Shown here in pieces: positions 1 to 8,408 of a DNA stretch of 11,812 nucleotides (positions are counted from its first letter, which is position 1; each line of letters starts with the position of its first letter). Made by a program: the position numbers and the translations under genes. Source of the DNA: an uncultured Candidatus Saccharibacteria bacterium (GTDB taxonomy: Bacteria > Patescibacteriota > Minisyncoccia > Portnoybacterales > UBA2143); contig CAZYSH010000021.1 in NCBI GenBank assembly GCA_964650035.1, forward strand, positions 1-11,812, written 5' to 3'. The notes under the pieces were generated by a model. The model was given only the letters and a program-made list of their open reading frames with translations, did not search any database and was not told the origin of the DNA.

Positions 1-2064
1 GAGGCAAAAATGACTAAGCTATCTGAAGAGATGCTGACAGATATTGATAAGGAAACAGTTGATTGGATGGATAATTATGATGGCACGCGTCAGGAGCCGG
101 TTGTTTTGCCGGCCAGGCCTCCTCAATTATTAGTCAATGGCGCTTTTGGAATTGCTGTGGGAATGACTACTAATATCCCACCTCATAATTTAGGGGAATT
201 AATTGAAGCAGTCGCCTATTTAATTGACCATCCTAAAGCCACAGTTAAGGACTTGTTCCAATTTATTAAAGGACCTGATTTTCCAACAGGCGGAGAGATT
301 TATGACAAAAAGAGCATGATTCAGGCATACAGCACCGGCCGCGGCCCGGTTGTTAATCGGGCTAAAGCGGAAATTATTGAAGAAAAAGCAAATAGATACC
401 AGATTATTATTAATGAAATGACTTATGGGACTAATAAGGCGAATTTGATTGCTAAAATCGCCGAGCTTTATAAAGCTAAGAAACTTGAAGGTATTAAGGA
501 TGTGCGCGACGAGTCGGACAAGGATGGGGTGCGGGTGGTAATTGACCTTAAAACTGATGTTAGTCCTCAAAGAGTGCTCAACCGCCTCTATAAGTTGACT
601 GATTTGCAAAAGACATTTCATATGAATATGTTGGCTTTGGTCAATGGGATTCAGCCGCAGGTCTTATCTTTGGTTAATGTTTTAGAAGAATATATCAAGC
701 ATCGTCAGGAAGTGGTTACTCGCCGAACCAAATATCTCTTAAAACAGGCAAAGGATAGAGCTCATATTTTAGAGGGTTTAAACAAAGCGCTTGACCACAT
801 TGACGCGGTTATTAAGACAATTAAAAAATCGCCTACCCGCGAGGAAGCGCATAAGAATTTAGTGAAAAAGTTTAAATTGAGCGAACTTCAAGCAACTGCT
901 ATTTTAGAGATGCGGCTTCAAACCTTGGCCGGTTTGGAACAAAAGAAAATCAAGGATGAATTAAAAGAAAAGAAGAAGTTAATTAAAGAATTAGGGGCCT
1001 TATTAAAGAGTCCTAAAAAGATTCTGGGGGTGATTAAAAAAGAGCTTAAGGAATTAAAAGAAAAATATGCTGATGAACGGAGAACTAAAGTTTATGCTCG
1101 GCCTTTAGGTAAATTGACTGAAGAGGATTTAGTGCCTAAAGAAGAATGTATTATTATTCTTACCCAAGGCGGCTATATTAAGAGAGTCAATCCGCAGTCA
1201 TACAAGGCGCAGAGAAGAGGCGGTAAAGGTATTTTAGGAATTAAGCCACGCGAAGAAGATGCGGTTGGCTGGTTTTTGCCCGCTTCAACTCATGATAGCA
1301 TTCTTTTCTTTACTGACCAGGGCAGGGTTTTCCAGATTAAGGCCTATGAATTGCCAGAGGCCAGCAGAGTAGCTCGGGGGCAGGCAATTGTTAATTTTCT
1401 TCAGTTGGGCGCCAAAGAGCAGGTTAACGTTGTTTTGAGGATGGGGAAAAATAAAGAGATGAAATATTTGGTTATGTCAACTGAAAATGGTATAATCAAA
1501 AGAACCAAAATAGAGGATTTTGTTAATGTTAGACAAAGCGGATTAATCGCTATCAAATTAAAGAAAGACGATAAGCTAAAATGGGCTAAGTTTACTTCTG
1601 GAAATGACGAGATTATATTAATAACCACTCAAGGACAAAGCATTCGCTTTAAAGAAACTGATGTTCGGTCTATGAGTCGGGCGGCGGCTGGAGTTAAAGG
1701 AATTAGTTTAAAAGGCAAAGATAAGTTGATTAGAATGGATGTGATTGGCAAAGATTCAAAAGGACAAAAGGTCTTGGTGGTCACGGAAAACGGTTTTGGC
1801 AAGAAAACTTATTTGAAGAATTATAAATTGCAGAAAAGAGGCGGTTTTGGAATTAAGACCGCCAAGTTGACCGCTAAAACAGGCAATATCGTGGCTAGTC
1901 ATGTAATTAAGTCGGAACAAGAGGACTTGATTGCCATCTCTCAAAAGGGGCAGGTGATTAGAACTGAACTTAAGAATATTGCTACTTTAGGTCGGGCAAC
2001 TCAAGGAGTTAAAGTTATGAAAGTGAATCAGGGGGATAAGGTGGCTTCAATCGCCTGTGTGTAA
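1..2064 (+). CDS. gyrA: DNA gyrase subunit A, 5'-truncated at window start (frame 1 open from nt 1; C-terminal ~685 aa including the beta-pinwheel domain)
   Basis: Translation contains the conserved GyrA segment [30 protein letters not shown] (cf. E. coli [28 protein letters not shown]). It also has [13 protein letters not shown], the GyrA-box (QRRGGKG), which distinguishes GyrA from ParC, and repeated beta-pinwheel blades in the C-terminus. The reading frame is open to nt 1, so the listed ATG at 10 is internal. Confidence 0.93.
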   Translation, partial: [687 protein letters not shown]

Positions 2065-2734: not shown

Positions 2735-4027
2735 GTGTCTAAAAAGAAAATCGCCACCATTTATACCTTTATTGCCCCAATAATCATTTTTGGGTTGGCC
2801 GCTTCTTTTCCCGGTTGTAAACCAGATCCGTTTAAAGAGGTGGAGTTAGAATTTTGGGGTGTTTTTGACGATTCTGACATTTATCAGCCGTTGATTACCG
2901 CTTTTAATGAAGAGTATAAGCATATTAAAATTAACTATTACAAGAAGAACCATCAGACCTATGAGAAAGATTTATTAGAGGCAATGGCTACCGGACGCGG
3001 GCCGGATATTTTTATGCTCCATCATACTTGGGCGCCCCGCTATGAGGATAAATTAGTGGCCGCTCCTTCTGATTTAATCACTCTTAGAGAAATTCAGGAG
3101 GATTTTGTTGATGTGGTTTATGATGATTTTGTTACTGAAGGATATATTCTTGCTTTGCCTTTAAGCGTTGACACTCTTGCTCTTTATTATAACAAAGATA
3201 TTTTTAATACGGTTGGTATTGCTCAACCGCCGCAGACCTGGGAAGAATTTTTAGCTGATGTAAAAAAAACAACTCTTAAAGACGAGAGAAATAATATTAT
3301 TAGGGCGGCGGCCGCTTTAGGCACGGCCCGCAATGTCAATCGTTCAACTGACATCTTATCTCTTTTAATGCTTCAATCAGGCGCTCAAATGGTTGACAGC
3401 GATAAAACTGAGGCGACTTTTGACCAGGCGGTCAGTTTGGAAGGAGAGAATTTTTATCCCGGCCAGCGAGCCCTGGAGTTTTATACCAATTTTGCCAATC
3501 CTTTGAAAACGGTCTATACCTGGAATAACCGAATGCATTATTCAATTGACGCTTTTTATGAGGGTAAGCTGGTTATGATGTTTAATTATTCTTATCATTT
3601 ACCGACTATTAAGGCCAGGTCGCCTTATTTGAATTTCGGGATTGCCTCAATGCCTCAAGTCAAAACAGCAACTAAAGATGTTAATTACGCTAATTATTGG
3701 GGTTTGGCTGTGTCTCATAATTCAGAAGCGGCTAAAGAGGCCTGGCAATTTATTGTTTGGCTGACTGACAAGGAAAACGCCGAAGCATATTTAGAGGCGG
3801 CCGAGAAACCAATCGCCCGCCGGGATTTAGTCAATTGGCAAAAAAACGACCCGGATTTAGGCGTTTTTGCTCAACAGGCCTTAACCGCCCATTCTTGGTA
3901 CCAAGTGGATAACTTAACTATTGAGCAATACTTGGCTGATATGATAGAATCAGTAGTATTAGGCGAAGCAACTATTGAAGAGGCAATTAAAAAAGCGGTT
4001 AATCAAGTAACTTTGTTAATGAAATAG
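2735..4027 (+). CDS. Extracellular solute-binding protein, family 1 (sugar/MalE-like ABC transporter substrate-binding protein), with an N-terminal signal/anchor. No cognate permease or ATPase lies adjacent (orphan SBP)
   Basis: GTG start at 2735. N-terminal hydrophobic segment IATIYTFIAPIIIFGLAASFPGC (cysteine after the signal, but a non-canonical lipobox). SBP_bac_1-like motifs ELEFWGV...DIFMLHHTWAPRY and LALPLSVDTLALYYNKDIFNTVGIAQPPQTWEEFLADVKK. Confidence 0.85.
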   Translation: MSKKKIATIYTFIAPIIIFGLAASFPGCKPDPFKEVELEFWGVFDDSDIYQPLITAFNEEYKHIKINYYKKNHQTYEKDLLEAMATGRGPDIFMLHHTWAPRYEDKLVAAPSDLITLREIQEDFVDVVYDDFVTEGYILALPLSVDTLALYYNKDIFNTVGIAQPPQTWEEFLADVKKTTLKDERNNIIRAAAALGTARNVNRSTDILSLLMLQSGAQMVDSDKTEATFDQAVSLEGENFYPGQRALEFYTNFANPLKTVYTWNNRMHYSIDAFYEGKLVMMFNYSYHLPTIKARSPYLNFGIASMPQVKTATKDVNYANYWGLAVSHNSEAAKEAWQFIVWLTDKENAEAYLEAAEKPIARRDLVNWQKNDPDLGVFAQQALTAHSWYQVDNLTIEQYLADMIESVVLGEATIEEAIKKAVNQVTLLMK

Positions 4028-4041
4028 AGATTAAGGATTTC

Positions 4042-4107
4042 ATCAAGGACGTTCCTTAAAATGACGTCCTTGTACACAAGGACGTCATTTTAAGGAACGT
4101 CCTTGAT
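4042..4107. repeat. Palindrome P1: perfect 32-bp inverted repeat with a 2-nt spacer (atcaaggacgttccttaaaatgacgtccttgt-ac-acaaggacgtcattttaaggaacgtccttgat). The core looks like a bidirectional intrinsic terminator (AAAA - 12-bp stem - TTTT) nested inside extended perfect outer arms
   Basis: The reverse complement of 4042-4073 equals 4076-4107 exactly. The outer-arm segment aaggacgttcctt is itself near-self-complementary, and the GACGTC palindromes sit inside the central stem, not in that segment. It fills the whole SBP/pilin-1 intergenic gap and ends 5 nt before the pilin-1 ATG at 4113. Confidence 0.85.
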
Positions 4108-4112
4108 ATATC

Positions 4113-4541
4113 ATGAAAATCTTTCAAAAAACTTTATTTTTCACTTTATTTTTAAGCGGATTAGTCAGAGCTAATCTGGCTTTAGCCGCTTTAGTGCCTT
4201 GCGGCGGTCCTACTCAATCACCATGTACGCTTTGCCATCTTTGGCAATTGGGCAGCAATATCATTAATTTTCTTACTTTTAGTTTAGCTATTCCCGCGGC
4301 CGCGCTTTTGTTCGTGGCGGCTGGTGTTATTTTTCTCGTTTCCGGCGGCAATGAATATAAATTGACTAAAGCAAAGACCATTTTTACTAACACAGTTATT
4401 GGTCTGTTAATAGTATTTTGTTCTTGGCTATTAATTGATACTTTAATAAAAACAATAGCAACCACAAGTACAGAAACAGGGGTAATTATATGGTCTTGGA
4501 ATGATTTTCCCATAGATTGTGCGGTTGGCTCCGAAGATTAA
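4113..4541 (+). CDS. VirB2/TrbC-like (CPR-type 'T4SS pilin'-like) small secreted two-helix membrane protein, paralog 1. It has a Cys-rich mature N-terminus and an extended C-terminal tail
   Basis: Signal peptide MKIFQKTLFFTLFLSGLVRANLALA. Cys-rich LVPCGGPTQSPCTLCHLW. Two hydrophobic helices separated by a charged loop (...AALLFVAAGVIFLVSGGNEYKLTKAKTIFTNTVIGLLIVF...). This loop/helix core is shared with the two downstream paralogs. Confidence 0.75.
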   Translation: MKIFQKTLFFTLFLSGLVRANLALAALVPCGGPTQSPCTLCHLWQLGSNIINFLTFSLAIPAAALLFVAAGVIFLVSGGNEYKLTKAKTIFTNTVIGLLIVFCSWLLIDTLIKTIATTSTETGVIIWSWNDFPIDCAVGSED

Positions 4542-4545
4542 AATA

Positions 4546-4899
4546 ATGTTTAAAAATAATTCTAAAAAAATTTCTATATTGTTTGTTTTGTGTTTTTTAT
4601 TATTTGGTTTATTTACAATAGAAGTTGAAGCAGATATTGTTTCAGATTCAATAGAAAATCCACTTGAGGCAGATAATTTTACTGAATTGATTGCAAATAT
4701 TATTGGATGGATTTCCAATATTGGTAAAGCTGTAGCAGTAATTATGATTATCTATGCCGGATTATTGTTTATGATCTCTGGAGGCAATGAAGAAAAGATT
4801 ACTAAGGCTAAGAAAACCTTAATTTGGTCTTTAATTGGTTTAGGCGTCTTGATAATAGGCGATGGATTTGTTAATATAGTAAAAAACCTTTTGGGGTGA
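4546..4899 (+). CDS. VirB2/TrbC-like small secreted two-helix protein, paralog 2
   Basis: Signal peptide MFKNNSKKISILFVLCFLLFGLFTIEVEA, then GKAVAVIMIIYAGLLFMISGGNEEKITKAKKTLIWSLIGLGVLI. The start was chosen at the ATG at 4546, 4 nt after the paralog-1 stop, because the signal peptide begins there. An upstream ATG at 4519 that overlaps paralog 1 is an alternative. Confidence 0.7.
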   Translation: MFKNNSKKISILFVLCFLLFGLFTIEVEADIVSDSIENPLEADNFTELIANIIGWISNIGKAVAVIMIIYAGLLFMISGGNEEKITKAKKTLIWSLIGLGVLIIGDGFVNIVKNLLG

Positions 4900-4943
4900 C
4901 TACTTAATAAATAAAACTATTCAATGAAAGGGGGTGAGAATTA

Positions 4944-5300
4944 GTGAGAAGTAAAAAAACAAAATTATTTTCTGTTGTTTTGGGTTCGCTTTTTGTGTTT
5001 TCGTTTTTAGCTGTGTCAGTGGCCTTTGCCGCTGTGCCAACTCAAGTAACCTCGGGTCTTGATGACCCAAGTGAAATAGTAACTCTAATTTCAGATATTG
5101 GTAAGTATTTTCAGGCTATTGTTTTGGCGATAGGTGTTCTTATGATTATTTACTCTGGTTTTTTGTGGATGACAACTGGAGGAGAAGAAGAAAAGTTAGG
5201 CAGCGCCAGAAAGATTTTGATTTATGGATTAGTTGGTATTGCCATAGCTGTTTTTGCTTATGCGGCTCAAACATTCCTGTTGGCTTTATTGCCAAAATAG
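4944..5300 (+). CDS. VirB2/TrbC-like small secreted two-helix protein, paralog 3
   Basis: GTG start preceded by a strong SD (aaagggggtgagaattaGTG). Signal peptide MRSKKTKLFSVVLGSLFVFSFLAVSVAFA. Core IGKYFQAIVLAIGVLMIIYSGFLWMTTGGEEEKLGSARKILIYGLVGIAIAVF is homologous to paralog 2. Confidence 0.78.
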   Translation: MRSKKTKLFSVVLGSLFVFSFLAVSVAFAAVPTQVTSGLDDPSEIVTLISDIGKYFQAIVLAIGVLMIIYSGFLWMTTGGEEEKLGSARKILIYGLVGIAIAVFAYAAQTFLLALLPK

Positions 5301-5325
5301 GAGTATTGTTGATTAAAATAAAAAA

Positions 5326-5364
5326 GCCAGAGAAGCGGTCTATTTTTTGCTTCGCTGGCTTTTT
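5326..5364. terminator. Bidirectional rho-independent terminator between the convergent pilin-3 (+) and membrane-protein (-) genes
   Basis: Stem gccagagaagc / gcttcgctggc (1 mismatch) with an A-run upstream (aaaaa) and a T-run downstream (ttttt), so it is usable on both strands. Confidence 0.55.
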
Positions 5365-5383: not shown

Positions 5384-6343
5384 TCAAGTGCGTCGTGGTT
5401 TTATTTGCACCTGAACTAATATTTCTTTTCCTCCTTTTTGTTTCGGTACCATTAGCTCTATTTTTTTGTCTGATACAGCTCGGCCGCTGAATCTCGGCCG
5501 GGTTATGGTTTTTGAGTGCCTATTGCGGTTTACAATGATGAATTTCCCGACGGAACCAAGTTGTTGGAAAGAGATTCCATCGCCTGCTTTATAGTATAGT
5601 TCTCGGCCTTCGGTATCCCGGCTGACAGTCTTTCCATTAGCCGGCAGTCGGAATATTCCAGAAAGGATTCGGGATTTAGTGAGGCGGATATCTTTATCTG
5701 GCTTTTTTTTGGGCTTCGGTTCTTTTTTAGGTAGCAGTTCTTTAATCTCTCTTTTTTTTTGTTCTAAAGAGATATATATCGGCAACCCATTCTTCTCAGT
5801 ATTGCTTTTGATCTCTTTTAGGTCTTTGACTAGAGGCTTCATTTTATAATCCTTGTCCGCCCGTTTGGTCTCTTCAACAAGAGAAAGAAGAACATTGCGG
5901 GTTAATCCATAGTAAATCTCGTTAATCTTGGCAGCACCGTTTTCTGTAAATTGAGCTATAAGTATAACTAGGACTAGACCAGTTAAGCCATAACCAGTCA
6001 TCCGAACTATAAAAACGAAGAAATTAGTTCTACCTAAGCAGGCCAGAAGAATACACAGGAACATTATTTGGAAAACCCAGAACGATTTAGTATGAGCTAT
6101 GACCTCTAGGGTAGCCGGGCTATGAAAGTCCCATAGAAAATGGAAAATAAACCAGGCAATAATTGCTCCGGAGAGCCAGTAGAGATCTTTGCCTTTTTTG
6201 AATTTTATCCCGATGGCAATGGTGATTGCCGCCAGGCCGATTAGGGTTAACAAAACCATGGTCTTGGTAAAGACCACATATGACGCTATAAGAATGAGCG
6301 CCGTAGCGATAGCCGCGATTATTATTTTTCTCCTATTGCTCAT
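5384..6343 (-). CDS. Polytopic membrane protein (about 5-6 N-terminal TM helices, a Lys/Pro-rich linker and a C-terminal soluble domain). Translationally coupled to the upstream SPFH gene; possibly an NfeD-like partner
   Basis: Its ATG (6343-6341) lies 8 nt upstream of the SPFH stop, an 11-nt overlap, and is preceded by a strong SD (GGAAAAGGAGGGAAGAATG). Hydrophobic N-terminal half, then KKEPKPKKKPDKD linker, then a beta-rich C-terminal region. The NfeD assignment comes only from gene context (cf. qmcA-ybbJ) and architecture, not from recognised motifs. Confidence 0.75.
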   Translation of the reverse strand: MSNRRKIIIAAIATALILIASYVVFTKTMVLLTLIGLAAITIAIGIKFKKGKDLYWLSGAIIAWFIFHFLWDFHSPATLEVIAHTKSFWVFQIMFLCILLACLGRTNFFVFIVRMTGYGLTGLVLVILIAQFTENGAAKINEIYYGLTRNVLLSLVEETKRADKDYKMKPLVKDLKEIKSNTEKNGLPIYISLEQKKREIKELLPKKEPKPKKKPDKDIRLTKSRILSGIFRLPANGKTVSRDTEGRELYYKAGDGISFQQLGSVGKFIIVNRNRHSKTITRPRFSGRAVSDKKIELMVPKQKGGKEILVQVQIKPRRT

Positions 6344-7358
6344 TCTTCCCTCCTTTTCCTTCGGTTTTGCCGGGTTCTGTTTCCCTTGCTGTTTTAAGGA
6401 TGTTGGCCACAGTGCCGATTCCGCTTTCTAATCCTTCTCGGATAATATCGGCTACAGCCAATTTTGTGCCGTCAGCTTGAGTGGCTTCTTTAATGATTTT
6501 TAATTCCGAACCACGTGTTTTTGCCGCTTCTTGGCGCATTTGGGCCACGGTCTTGTACTCGGATGCTGCCCTAACTTCTTCCGGCGGCAGAAATTTCTGG
6601 ATTTCAATAGCGTCTGTCCAGATTCCCAGGCGAAGGTTATTCATAGCTTGATTGAACAAACGAGCGGCATTTTTTTCCATTTTTCCCAGTTCACCTTCTT
6701 CGATTTCAATCAGGTCAGCCATGGTTTTTTTGGCGCAGAGCTGATTAAGAATGACAGAAGCCTGGTCGTCTTCAAAGTTATTTCTTGTCTTGTCGTCATT
6801 ATCAACTCTGATGGCATAATTAATTGCTGCGTTTGGGTCAGGAATTGAAGTGATAATCCTGGCGTCAACAATTAGATTCTGCCCGTCACTGGAACTAACC
6901 GTGATCGGCTCCAGGTTTCTGGCCTTAGGCGACATATCTACCAAGCCAACTACAATGTGCCAAGCTTTTTTTAGAATGAACCGCCATCCCTCCTTTTTAG
7001 CTGTGTATCCATCATTGGTGTCTGGATTGGAACTCCACGCGTTCCTTAAGACAAGAATGTGGTTGTCTGGTGCATTAAGCCAGAAATTGGCAAAAACTTC
7101 TTCTGCGCTTTTTTCTTTTTTAATATCTTTTTTATCCTTTTTGACAAAAGTGATTCCGGTAGCGATTGCCCCGAAGACACATAGAAAAATAAGGATAACA
7201 GGTAGAAGAATTGCCAAATGTTTAACTGAACCTGGAAGGGTAATCAGTAGAGCGGTAATTACTGTTACTATTCCAGCAAGCGCGATAAGCAAGTCAATTG
7301 TGTTTTCATCTAAACCTCTTGGTGAGATAGTTGTCCCTATAAGATTTATTCTCATCAT
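6333..7358 (-). CDS. SPFH/band-7 domain protein (stomatin/prohibitin/HflKC family) with an N-terminal membrane anchor
   Basis: Two N-terminal TM helices. SPFH core motifs ITVSSSDGQNLIVDARIITSIPDPNAAINYA and GIWTDAIEIQKFLPPEEVRAASEYKTVAQMRQEAAK (cf. E. coli QmcA [28 protein letters not shown] / GIKVTRIEIRDVRPPAEL). SD aaaggagagaaaaATG. Confidence 0.88.
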   Translation of the reverse strand: MMRINLIGTTISPRGLDENTIDLLIALAGIVTVITALLITLPGSVKHLAILLPVILIFLCVFGAIATGITFVKKDKKDIKKEKSAEEVFANFWLNAPDNHILVLRNAWSSNPDTNDGYTAKKEGWRFILKKAWHIVVGLVDMSPKARNLEPITVSSSDGQNLIVDARIITSIPDPNAAINYAIRVDNDDKTRNNFEDDQASVILNQLCAKKTMADLIEIEEGELGKMEKNAARLFNQAMNNLRLGIWTDAIEIQKFLPPEEVRAASEYKTVAQMRQEAAKTRGSELKIIKEATQADGTKLAVADIIREGLESGIGTVANILKTARETEPGKTEGKGGKNEQ

Positions 7359-7529: not shown

Positions 7530-7613
7530 GCGGACGTGGCGGAACTGGAATACGCGCTGGGTTTAGGACCCAGTGGGATTTATCCCTTGTGGGTTCAACT
7601 CCCACCGTCCGCA
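7530..7613 (+). tRNA. tRNA-Leu (anticodon UAG), type II with a long variable arm. The 3' CCA is not encoded
   Basis: 7-bp acceptor stem GCGGACG/CGTCCGC; U8; 3-bp D-stem GCG/CGC with a long D-loop; anticodon stem CUGGG/CCCAG; 7-nt loop UUUAGGA with UAG at positions 34-36. Variable-arm hairpin GGGAU-uuu-AUCCC; T-arm GUGGG-UUCAACU-CCCAC; discriminator A. Confidence 0.9.
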
Positions 7614-7634
7614 CAATAGAATGTCCGGTAACTC

Positions 7635-7987: not shown

Positions 7988-8194
7988 ATGGATTTAGATG
8001 TCAATGTGCAAGAATTATTAAAGGTAAATACAGAGAAATGCGAATGCGGAGGGAGGATTGTTCCTGCCAAAACGTCTGAGGATAGGTTACTTGGCAAGAT
8101 GAAAGAGTGTGATACTTGCGGGAAATCTTCAATAAATGGGGAAGAGGTTGATCTTTTTTCGTCTAAAAGAATGTCAGGAGTTCTATTGTTTTAA
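7988..8194 (+). CDS. Small zinc-ribbon-like protein (68 aa; CxC...CxxC)
   Basis: Strong SD (aaagggggtatcATG). Cysteine pairs KCECGG ... ECDTCGK, a typical Zn-ribbon arrangement. No recognisable larger family. Confidence 0.6.
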   Translation: MDLDVNVQELLKVNTEKCECGGRIVPAKTSEDRLLGKMKECDTCGKSSINGEEVDLFSSKRMSGVLLF

Positions 8195-8222: not shown

Positions 8223-8408
8223 ATGGGAATAGAAGCTTACAGCGATGAGCAATTAAAAGGAATGCTTGAATCGTGTATCAAGGGAAAGAATTCTACTATG
8301 GAAAAAGAGATCAGGGATATTCTAAATTCAAGGGGCGTTTCTTACGAAGAATTATTAAATAAACCTTTTCCACCCATGGTATTGGGCTGGTCGTCGCCTT
8401 CAGATTGA
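8223..8408 (+). CDS. Hypothetical small protein (61 aa), probably co-transcribed with the zinc-ribbon gene
   Basis: Strong SD (aaaggagaaagattATG). Begins 28 nt after the upstream stop. Predicted helical and acidic; no recognised motif. Confidence 0.55.
   Translation: MGIEAYSDEQLKGMLESCIKGKNSTMEKEIRDILNSRGVSYEELLNKPFPPMVLGWSSPSD

What the first reader, a model, noticed from the sequence alone, without database searches (positions are those of the whole stretch)
4113..5300. Tandem triplet of divergent VirB2/TrbC-like secreted two-helix 'pilin' paralogs with no other secretion-system genes in the window
Three consecutive small ORFs each encode a signal peptide, a variable mature N-terminal segment and a conserved core. 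The core is hydrophobic helix, then S/T-GG-(N/E)E-x-K-hinge-(K/S)A(K/R)K, then a second hydrophobic helix (xSGGNEYKLTKAK, ISGGNEEKITKAK, TTGGEEEKLGSARK). This topology matches VirB2/TrbC conjugative pilins and the CPR-specific T4SS-pilin-like family. The N-terminal mature regions differ sharply. Paralog 1 has a 4-Cys segment LVPCGGPTQSPCTLCHLW and a 30-aa C-terminal tail. Paralogs 2 and 3 are acidic and Cys-free. This suggests functional or antigenic diversification of a surface filament or adhesion subunit. No VirB4, VirB6 or other secretion-system genes are visible in the window. In episymbiotic CPR such pilin arrays are proposed to mediate host attachment or DNA uptake.
Basis: partly seen in the sequence, partly recalled or inferred. 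Interest (0 to 1): 0.6.

Follow-up and report, generated by a model that had tools for sequence, protein, structure and literature searches.

The report
Three VirB2-like pilin genes, Patescibacteria
The window carries a real operon of three divergent VirB2/TrbC-type "T4SS pilin" genes of an ultrasmall Patescibacteria bacterium, a kind of array already described in the literature, although this one is a fixed, anciently specialised triplet that is always coupled to a solute-binding-protein gene and led by a pilin with four invariant cysteines.

Summary
Three adjacent + strand genes (p1 4113-4541, p2 4546-4899, p3 4944-5300) each encode a signal peptide, a variable mature N-terminus and a helix-loop-helix core. 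All three pass Pfam's cut-off for PF18895 (T4SS_pilin), and p2 and p3 also pass TrbC/VirB2. Tandem arrays of divergent VirB2-like pilins in Patescibacteria are already published (441 arrays; one essential array in Ca. Southlakia epibionticum), so the finding is a new member of a known kind. Four further points emerged. (1) The triplet is old and position-specific, since each paralog has its own ortholog at the same position in about 24 syntenic loci. Mean identity across 22 species-level loci is p1 57%, p2 40% and p3 35%. (2) The array always follows gyrA, a methyltransferase and an orphan SBP_bac_1 gene. The SBP stop usually abuts or overlaps the p1 start, and one relative has SBP and p1 fused. 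(3) p1 belongs to a widespread subfamily with four conserved cysteines, three N-terminal and one C-terminal. Co-loss of C41 and the C-terminal Cys suggests a disulfide joining the two exposed termini. (4) No T4SS machinery lies within 10 kb in about 30 genomes. Fold searches were non-discriminating. The function remains inferred.

The parts
2735..4027 (+). Orphan extracellular solute-binding protein gene (SBP_bac_1/SBP_bac_8, MalE/UgpB-like; N-terminal signal anchor or lipoprotein-like 'SFPGC'), the conserved upstream partner of p1
   Evidence: Pfam 124.5 bits. NCBIfam gives only weak MalE/GanS/UgpB matches. It lies immediately upstream of a p1-type pilin in 24 syntenic loci plus L042-L044. 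It is fused to p1 in P0146. No ABC permease or ATPase gene is in the window.
4042..4107 (.). Perfect 66-nt palindrome (32-nt arms, 2-nt centre) that fills the SBP-p1 spacer and ends 5 nt before the p1 ATG. It is strain-specific.
   Evidence: the repeat finder I1, 100% complementary. The RNA fold is -56.3 kcal/mol, z = -13.4. It is present only in this strain's contigs L001-L006. In relatives SBP and p1 abut or overlap.
4113..4541 (+). p1: four-Cys 'p1-type' T4SS_pilin (142 aa; signal peptide res 1-25 = 4113-4187; C30 4200-4202, C38 4224-4226, C41 4233-4235; helix 1 ~res 40-76; loop SGGNEYKLTKAK; helix 2 ~res 81-116; C-terminal W129-x-x-F-P-x-x-C136, Cys at 4518-4520)
   Evidence: PF18895 30.1 bits. 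About 75 full-length homologs with invariant C30/C38/C41/C136. AF2 hairpin. Cys co-occurrence.
4546..4899 (+). p2: Cys-free T4SS_pilin/TrbC-like pilin (117 aa from ATG 4546; signal peptide res 1-29; acidic mature N-terminus DIVSDSIENPLEADNF; loop SGGNEEKITKAK)
   Evidence: PF18895 54.0 and PF04956 32.0 bits, both above cut-off. NF045849 34.5 bits, below its cut-off of 40. Position-2 orthologs.
4944..5300 (+). p3: Cys-free T4SS_pilin/TrbC-like pilin (118 aa, GTG start with GGGGGTGA RBS; signal peptide res 1-29; the most variable mature N-terminus; loop TGGEEEKLGSARK)
   Evidence: PF18895 41.5 and PF04956 29.5 bits. Position-3 orthologs. The mature N-terminus is 20% identical across species.
5321..5364 (.). 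GC-rich hairpin flanked by A- and T-runs: a likely bidirectional intrinsic terminator that closes the pilin operon against the convergent downstream gene
   Evidence: Inverted repeat I4, 16-nt arms, 94% complementary. Terminator-like site 5332-5353.

Best explanation
The locus is a chromosomal, core-genome operon of a Paceibacteria-type (Portnoybacteria-like) Patescibacterium. It encodes three non-redundant subunits of the VirB2/TrbC pilin superfamily (Pfam T4SS_pilin). Shown: homology to the family, the signal peptide plus helix-loop-helix architecture, tandem arrangement ending in a terminator, position-specific orthology across species, tight coupling to an upstream SBP gene, and four conserved cysteines in p1. 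Inferred mechanism: each precursor is exported by Sec and cleaved after the AxA site. It then sits in the membrane as a hairpin with the basic loop (..GGxExKxxxAK..) on the cytoplasmic side and both termini outside. From that membrane pool the subunits are used by the Patescibacteria chromosomal T4SS (VirB4/VirB3/VirB6/VirB8-like, encoded elsewhere in the genome) to build a heteromeric surface conduit or short pilus. p1 is the conserved structural or adaptor subunit. Its N-terminal segment and C-terminal tail are tied together outside the cell by disulfides (most likely C41-C136, with C30-C38 forming a small loop). This would be a covalent closure analogous in effect to the head-to-tail cyclisation of TrbC, VirB2 and TrhA. 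p2 and especially p3 expose fast-evolving acidic N-termini and provide the variable, partner-facing surface. The co-transcribed SBP probably works at the same surface assembly.
For: Family membership is shown. The hairpin has pLDDT of about 90. Mature VirB2 of the T-pilus (8exh_A) aligns over all its 69 residues with TM 0.59 and the highest identity in the list. Position-specific orthology: same-position bit scores are 152-165, 96-119 and 84-90, against 26-67 between positions. The conservation gradient is GyrA .73, SBP .65, MTase .62, p1 .57, p2 .40, p3 .35, and the p3 mature N-terminus is .20. The synteny gyrA-MTase-SBP-pilin x3-4 holds in 24 loci (23 of the 27 species-representative genome loci), with SBP stop and p1 start abutting or overlapping. 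More distant lineages show the same arrangement, including an SBP::p1 fusion and a p1::SLT fusion at the orthologous position. Four Cys are retained in 138 of 141 p1-type cluster representatives, and the only two that lost C41 also lost the C-terminal Cys. Published precedent: pilin arrays are common in Patescibacteria, the pilin gene is not near virB4 in 813 of 1,948 assemblies, and the array is essential in Ca. S. epibionticum (PMC12102498, PMC10633639, PMC12857230). VirB4 is present in 7 of the 13 Portnoybacteria draft assemblies I could read in Table S1 of PMC12102498.
Against: No VirB4, VirB6 or VirD4 gene lies within 10 kb of the array in about 30 genomes, and I could not check the rest of the source genome. 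Six of 13 Portnoybacteria drafts lack a detected VirB4. No filament has been seen for any PF18895 protein. Fold searches do not separate VirB2 from ATP synthase subunit c or designed hairpins, and PDB sequence and profile searches find no pilin. p1 itself fails the TrbC cut-off (14.4 bits). The cysteine-bearing termini are modelled with low confidence (pLDDT 43-68), no coordinates were available to measure Cys-Cys distances, and the co-loss rests on two sequences. The SBP link could be inherited gene order in compact genomes, and the fusion was seen once among thousands of SBP homologs.
Confidence: 0.55

Rival explanations
1. SBP-coupled membrane module that is not a pilus. The hairpin proteins stay in the membrane as a hetero-oligomer that anchors or partners the orphan solute-binding protein, for example as a substrate-capture or uptake device or a scaffold for surface enzymes. 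It would work independently of any T4SS.
For: SBP and p1 are adjacent in every syntenic locus, with overlapping stop and start codons, and they are fused in P0146 at the orthologous site. The SBP has no permease or ATPase neighbours. p1-type modules often carry C-terminal extracellular domains (55 of the top 150, including SLT), as a membrane anchor would. Proteins with 5-10 concatenated pilin repeats look like polytopic membrane proteins. No T4SS genes lie nearby.
Against: Sequence homology to TrbC/VirB2 is above curated thresholds. In other Patescibacteria the same family sits inside T4SS clusters and is essential together with them (PMC12102498, PMC10633639). Fusion is rare, and the top 120 SBP orthologs are all stand-alone. 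gyrA and a methyltransferase are equally syntenic, so order alone is weak evidence. No known transporter uses such hairpins.
Confidence: 0.2
2. Host-range or antigenic variation array, as suggested in the literature for Patescibacteria and Bartonella/Anaplasma VirB2 paralogs. The three genes would be interchangeable major pilins diversified to present alternative surfaces.
For: Paralog identity is low at 23-36%, similar to the published mean of 25%. The exposed N-terminus of p3 is only 20% identical between species, and p2 is 38%. Array size varies from 1 to 7 in relatives.
Against: Gene order and identity are fixed, and each position has its own ortholog across about 24 syntenic loci. p1 is conserved at 57%, including its exposed N-terminus at 60%. 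There are no repeats, recombination cassettes or invertible elements in the locus. All three sit in one operon, so they are probably co-expressed rather than alternated.
Confidence: 0.15
3. Generic small two-TM membrane proteins whose match to pilin models is compositional, for example holin-like, bacteriocin-immunity-like or ATP-synthase-c-like hairpins.
For: Hydrophobic hairpins attract weak matches to many membrane families (lower rows). Structure searches rank ATP synthase subunit c and designed hairpins as high as VirB2.
Against: Scores reach 54 bits, twice the curated cut-off, with the conserved loop motif aligned. 33,291 cluster representatives match the p1 profile. Members with 8 repeats score 223 bits against PF18895. 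There are no hits in the defence library. Each protein has a cleavable signal peptide followed by two helices, as in VirB2 precursors.
Confidence: 0.05

Closest known systems
VirB2-like pilin arrays of Patescibacteria (Quinonero-Coronel et al. 2025, PMC12102498; essential six-pilin array of Ca. Southlakia epibionticum ML1, Wang et al. 2023, PMC10633639)
   Same: The same Pfam families (PF18895, PF04956), tandem arrangement, low identity between array members (23-36% here, published mean 25%), chromosomal location, a monoderm host and no relaxase context.
   Different: This array is not in or near a virB4 cluster. It is a fixed triplet with position-specific orthologs. It is led by a four-Cys pilin and is always preceded by an SBP_bac_1 gene. 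None of these features is mentioned in that paper.
Conjugative pilins VirB2 (Agrobacterium T-pilus), TrbC (RP4) and TrhA (H-pilus), which are cyclic pilins
   Same: A long signal peptide, two hydrophobic helices joined by a short basic loop, and both termini on the outer face. The solved VirB2 superposes over its full length (TM 0.59). A covalent link between the N- and C-terminal ends is a recurring solution (PMC13434634, PMC12037004).
   Different: Those pilins are closed by a peptide bond made by a dedicated peptidase, are encoded inside T4SS operons of diderm plasmids and are single-copy. In p1 the proposed closure is a disulfide (inferred, not shown), the mature protein is longer (117 aa against about 70-78), and the host is a monoderm.
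Mbov_0395 / ICE_MMCAP2_0565 pilin-like conjugal transfer protein of Mycoplasma ICEs (NCBIfam NF045849)
   Same: A VirB2-like hairpin protein in a wall-less or monoderm lineage. p2 aligns over nearly the whole model (34.5 bits).
   Different: The score is below the family cut-off of 40, and this locus is not in an integrative conjugative element.
Tandem VirB2 paralogs of Bartonella and Anaplasma T4SSs
   Same: Multiple divergent virB2 copies side by side.
   Different: Those are thought to vary antigenically within a pathogen T4SS locus. Here the copies are stable orthologous positions in a housekeeping neighbourhood.

Membership tests
Pfam PF18895 T4SS_pilin (Patescibacteria-rich pilin family) | Whole-protein HMM score at or above the gathering cut-off (26.6 bits) | tested here: met
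   p1 30.1, p2 54.0, p3 41.5 bits. All homologs found carry PF18895.
Pfam PF04956 TrbC/VirB2 pilin | Whole-protein HMM score at or above the gathering cut-off (27.9 bits) | tested here: met
   p2 32.0 and p3 29.5 bits pass. p1 at 14.4 bits does not, so p1 is a member only through PF18895 and its paralogy to p2 (E 4e-11).
VirB2-type conjugative pilin | Precursor with a cleavable signal peptide followed by two hydrophobic helices joined by a short charged loop | tested here: met
   Hydropathy and AxA sites. AF2 helices 40-76 and 81-116. Mature model H15-51 and H56-91 with pLDDT of about 90. Cleavage itself was not tested.
VirB2-type conjugative pilin | Three-dimensional similarity to solved pilins (T-pilus VirB2, F TraA, archaeal conjugation pilins) that stands out from other folds | tested here: inconclusive
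VirB2-type conjugative pilin | Encoded with, or dependent on, T4SS machinery (VirB4 ATPase, VirB6, VirB3/8) | tested here: not met
   None in the window or within 10 kb in about 30 related loci. The genome-wide presence in the source organism was not testable. VirB4 was reported in 7 of 13 Portnoybacteria drafts.
VirB2-type conjugative pilin | Polymerises into an extracellular filament, usually with bound phospholipid | not testable with these tools
   Needs microscopy or biochemistry. No experimental filament has been reported for PF18895 proteins in the papers read.
Cyclic pilins (TrbC/VirB2/TrhA) | Head-to-tail peptide-bond cyclisation by a TraF-like peptidase | not tested
   No TraF-like gene is in the window. 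For p1 a disulfide closure is proposed instead, based on four conserved Cys and the co-loss of C41 with the C-terminal Cys.
Patescibacteria VirB2 array (PMC12102498) | Two or more PF18895/PF04956 genes in tandem with low mutual identity | tested here: met
   Three adjacent genes, 23-36% identical.
NCBIfam NF045849 Mbov_0395 pilin-like conjugal transfer protein | Score at or above 40 bits | tested here: not met
   p2 34.5, p3 17.7, p1 no hit.
SBP-dependent ABC importer (for the linked SBP gene) | SBP encoded with membrane permease(s) and an ATPase | tested here: not met
   No BPD_transp or ABC_tran gene is in the window or in the syntenic flanks. The SBP is an orphan followed by pilins.

The most novel reading that the evidence does not exclude
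p1 defines an undescribed, widespread class of 'disulfide-closed' T4SS pilins. Its extracellular N- and C-termini would be covalently joined (C41-C136, plus a C30-C38 loop), which would be a monoderm, redox-based counterpart of the peptide-bond cyclisation of TrbC/VirB2/TrhA. This subunit would be the docking module of the Patescibacteria T4SS surface structure. It is translationally coupled to, and in one relative fused with, a solute-binding protein, and in other relatives it is fused to cell-wall hydrolases. That would point to an import or host-scavenging role for the apparatus rather than DNA export.
Probability: 0.2. Interest if true: 0.7.

Novelty: new member of a known kind. Interest (0 to 1): 0.35.

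Why it matters
The T4SS and its pilin array are among the few systems shown to be essential for the epibiotic life of Patescibacteria, and their function is openly described as unknown. This locus adds nothing categorical to that picture. It does supply testable constraints: the paralogs are specialised rather than interchangeable; one conserved subunit type probably has its termini disulfide-stapled; and that subunit is genetically tied to a substrate-binding protein and, in relatives, to peptidoglycan hydrolases. If these links are functional, they favour a nutrient-capture or host-wall-processing role and identify p1 as the subunit to target in structural and genetic work.

Tried and rejected
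1. Heme c attachment at C38-T-L-C41-H42 (CxxCH) was rejected. Position 42 is His in 64 and Asp in 62 of 141 representatives, and all four Cys are extracytoplasmic.
3. The Cys-Cys geometry could not be measured, because the prediction tool returns no coordinates and the termini have low pLDDT.
4. A defence-system role was rejected. PADLOC gave no hits for p1-p3 or the two downstream genes.
5. The idea that the palindrome is a repeated mobile element was not supported. There is no second copy in the window, it occurs only in this strain's contigs, and there was no exact match in the metagenome scan. That scan also missed contigs known to carry the palindrome, so it is uninformative.
6. A search for T4SS genes next to atypical p1-type loci (L025, L031, L040, L041, L045) found only housekeeping genes.
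7. Recurrent SBP-pilin fusions were not found. The top 120 SBP orthologs are stand-alone, so the fusion is a single case.
8. Identification of the source assembly failed, because the look-up of the NCBI-style p2 protein returned only short contigs.
Full report
**Observation.** The window holds three adjacent + strand genes at the reported place.
- p1 is 4113-4541 (142 aa).
- p2 is an ORF opening at GTG 4519, whose likely start is ATG 4546 (117 aa, 4 nt after the p1 stop; this is the start used in JGI gene calls).
- p3 is 4944-5300 (118 aa, GTG start behind a GGGGGTGA Shine-Dalgarno sequence).

Each protein has a basic N-terminus, a hydrophobic stretch and an AxA-type cleavage site. The three are true paralogs: p1-p2 34% (E 4e-11), p2-p3 36% (E 1e-15), p1-p3 23% (E 2e-5). 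A hairpin flanked by A- and T-runs at 5321-5364 closes the unit against the convergent downstream gene.

Two details need correcting. The 'four-Cys segment' holds three cysteines (C30, C38, C41). The C-terminal tail is about 26 residues and contains the fourth conserved cysteine.

**Family.** All three proteins pass the curated cut-off of Pfam PF18895 T4SS_pilin (30.1, 54.0 and 41.5 bits against 26.6). p2 and p3 also pass PF04956 TrbC/VirB2 (32.0 and 29.5 against 27.9), while p1 does not (14.4). NCBIfam's Mycoplasma ICE pilin-like model matches p2 below its cut-off (34.5 against 40).

AlphaFold2 models of p1, first with its signal peptide and then as the mature protein with a 76-sequence alignment, give a helix-loop-helix hairpin. 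pLDDT is about 90 in the hairpin and 43-68 in the cysteine-bearing termini.

**What is already known.** Tandem arrays of VirB2-like pilins in Patescibacteria have been described with exactly these two Pfam models. The survey found 441 arrays of 2-11 genes in 383 assemblies, with a mean identity of 25% within arrays. The pilin gene lay near virB4 in only 1,135 of 1,948 assemblies (PMC12102498). In Ca. Southlakia epibionticum the pilin series lies inside the T4SS cluster and is essential by Tn-seq (PMC10633639; review PMC12857230). The role of this T4SS is described as completely unknown (PMC11665869). Its remark about host attachment and DNA uptake belongs to type IV pili, not to these pilins.

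**Context and conservation.** The parent contig and relatives were recovered, along with 27 loci from species-representative genomes. I annotated them with profiles made from the window's own proteins.

In 23 of the 27 genome loci, and in all the metagenome contigs, the order is gyrA, SAM methyltransferase, SBP_bac_1, then three pilins (four in two cases). Downstream there usually follow a convergent unknown membrane protein and an SPFH/Band_7 protein, then VanW, Hsp20 and PrsW. FtsH, an S1-domain protein and a metallo-beta-lactamase-fold protein lie upstream.

This is a housekeeping neighbourhood, not a mobile element. Names attached to homologs (Portnoybacteria, Parcubacteria group) place the organism in class Paceibacteria.

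No VirB4, VirD4 or VirB6 gene lies within 10 kb in any locus. I checked this through the precomputed Pfam tables and by scanning the unassigned large ORFs. Whether the source genome has a T4SS elsewhere could not be tested. In Table S1 of PMC12102498, 7 of the 13 Portnoybacteria drafts I could read carry VirB4.

**The triplet is ancient and specialised.** All-against-all comparison of arrays from four genomes shows that each position has its own ortholog. Same-position bit scores are 152-165 (position 1), 96-119 (position 2) and 84-90 (position 3), against 26-67 between positions.

Mean pairwise identity across 22 species-level loci:

| Protein | Identity |
|---|---|
| GyrA | 0.73 |
| SBP | 0.65 |
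| methyltransferase | 0.62 |
| p1 | 0.57 |
| p2 | 0.40 |
| p3 | 0.35 |

By region, the exposed mature N-terminus is 0.60 in p1, 0.38 in p2 and 0.20 in p3, while the inter-helix loop is about 0.5 in all three. p1 therefore evolves almost like a housekeeping protein, and p3 presents a fast-evolving surface. This fits fixed, non-redundant roles better than interchangeable antigenic variants.

**The p1 type.** About 75 full-length homologs of p1 (50-76% identical) share invariant C30, C38, C41 and C136 and a C-terminal W-N-x-F-P-x-C motif.

An exhaustive profile search found 33,291 cluster representatives at E <= 1e-3 and 7,290 at E <= 1e-10. Among the best 150, 141 span the whole p1 architecture.
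- 138 of these keep all four cysteines (in six the first Cys is shifted by one residue).
- One is a truncated fragment.
- The only two that lack C41 also lack the C-terminal cysteine.

Position 42 is His or Asp in equal numbers, which rules out a heme CxxCH site. With a cleaved signal peptide and a two-helix hairpin, both termini lie outside the membrane. I therefore infer a C41-C136 disulfide tying the tail to the N-terminal segment, with C30-C38 forming a small loop.

This would achieve by oxidation what TrbC, VirB2 and TrhA achieve by head-to-tail peptide cyclisation (PMC13434634, PMC12037004). It is an inference only. The termini are poorly modelled, no coordinates could be inspected, and the co-loss rests on two sequences.

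**The SBP link.**
- In most relatives the SBP stop codon abuts or overlaps the p1 start (from -4 to +8 nt), which suggests co-transcription and perhaps translational coupling.
- The arrangement persists in lineages whose p1 is only 35% identical (L011) and in other 50%-identity clusters (L044).
- In GCA_042568045.1 the orthologous position holds one 746-aa protein with SBP_bac_1/8 and T4SS_pilin domains, followed by six more pilins.
- In another lineage the position after the SBP holds a p1-type module fused to an SLT lytic transglycosylase.
- 55 of the top 150 p1-type proteins carry C-terminal extensions of more than 60 residues.

The fusion with the SBP is nevertheless rare, because the 120 closest SBP orthologs are all stand-alone. 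gyrA and the methyltransferase are equally syntenic. The SBP has no permease or ATPase neighbour and only weak similarity to MalE, GanS and UgpB. The published survey mentions neither solute-binding proteins, nor cysteines, nor pilin fusions.

**Mechanism.** My best account (confidence about 0.55) is as follows.
1. The three precursors are Sec-exported and cleaved after the AxA site.
2. They are held in the membrane as hairpins with the basic loop on the cytoplasmic side.
3. They are then used by a chromosomal T4SS encoded elsewhere to form a heteromeric surface conduit or short pilus.
4. p1 is the conserved, disulfide-closed structural or adaptor subunit that works with the SBP.
5. p2 and p3 form the variable outer surface.

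The rivals are these:
- A T4SS-independent membrane module serving the SBP (0.2). The fusions, the poly-pilin proteins and the absence of nearby machinery support it.
- The published antigenic or host-range variation idea (0.15). The fixed orthologous positions weaken it.
- A compositional artefact (0.05). The scores and the size of the family contradict it.

**Verdict.** The parts worth carrying forward are the fixed, specialised triplet, the four-Cys p1 type and its coupling to an orphan solute-binding protein.

Noticed in passing
window 4042-4107: A perfect 66-nt palindrome (32-nt arms) fills the SBP-p1 spacer and ends 5 nt before the p1 start codon. As RNA it folds at -56.3 kcal/mol (z = -13.4) and would bury any ribosome-binding site. 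It is present only in this strain's contigs, whereas in relatives the two genes abut or overlap. It could be a terminator or attenuator, an RNase III site or an operator.
   Followed up: partly
L001 3903-7952 (parent contig, upstream of window 10-2064); also L009/L022 4114-8157: The gyrA gene of which the window holds the 3' part is 1,349 aa in the parent contig and carries an intein (PF14890) inside the DNA_topoisoIV domain. Some relatives have the intein (about 1,347 aa) and others do not (about 815-822 aa).
   Followed up: no
P0096 (L045 9925-12387), P0097, P0102, P0109, P0128: Single polypeptides of 550-970 aa made of 5-10 concatenated T4SS_pilin hairpin repeats (P0096: 8 repeats, 223 bits). 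These are whole pilin arrays fused into one ORF. In L045, P0096 is followed by a pilin, a pilin-PKD fusion and a PKD-repeat protein. This raises the question of whether such proteins can be pilus subunits at all.
   Followed up: partly
P0104 (L043 10001-11188) and other p1-type proteins of 280-900 aa: p1-type pilin modules carry C-terminal extracellular extensions: an SLT lytic transglycosylase in P0104, and Cys-rich linkers with 'GGTE.GH...H..VD'-type domains without a Pfam match in others. They look like VirB1-like wall hydrolases anchored by a pilin hairpin.
   Followed up: partly
window 5384-6343 (-) and 6333-7358 (-): A convergent pair lies downstream of the array: a 319-aa multi-TM protein with no family match, overlapping by 11 nt with an SPFH/Band_7 protein (weakly HflK-like). 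An SPFH protein recurs just downstream of the pilin array in many related loci, which may indicate a membrane-microdomain partner.
   Followed up: partly
window 7988-8194 (+) and 8223-8408 (+): Two small conserved ORFs (68 and 61 aa) are called as genes in sibling contigs. The first has a CxxG...CxxC zinc-ribbon-like pattern. Neither has a significant family match.
   Followed up: no
L025 10001-10420, L031 9218-9640; L040 968-2143, L041 9782-10786: Some genomes carry a lone p1-type pilin between dnaE and ligA. Others carry the pilin module at the N-terminus of 334-391-aa proteins in housekeeping surroundings. So p1-type genes also occur outside arrays and away from the SBP.
   Followed up: partly
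window 7530-7614 (+): A tRNA-Leu (anticodon TAG) lies between the SPFH gene and the small ORFs (ARAGORN and Rfam agree).
   Followed up: yes
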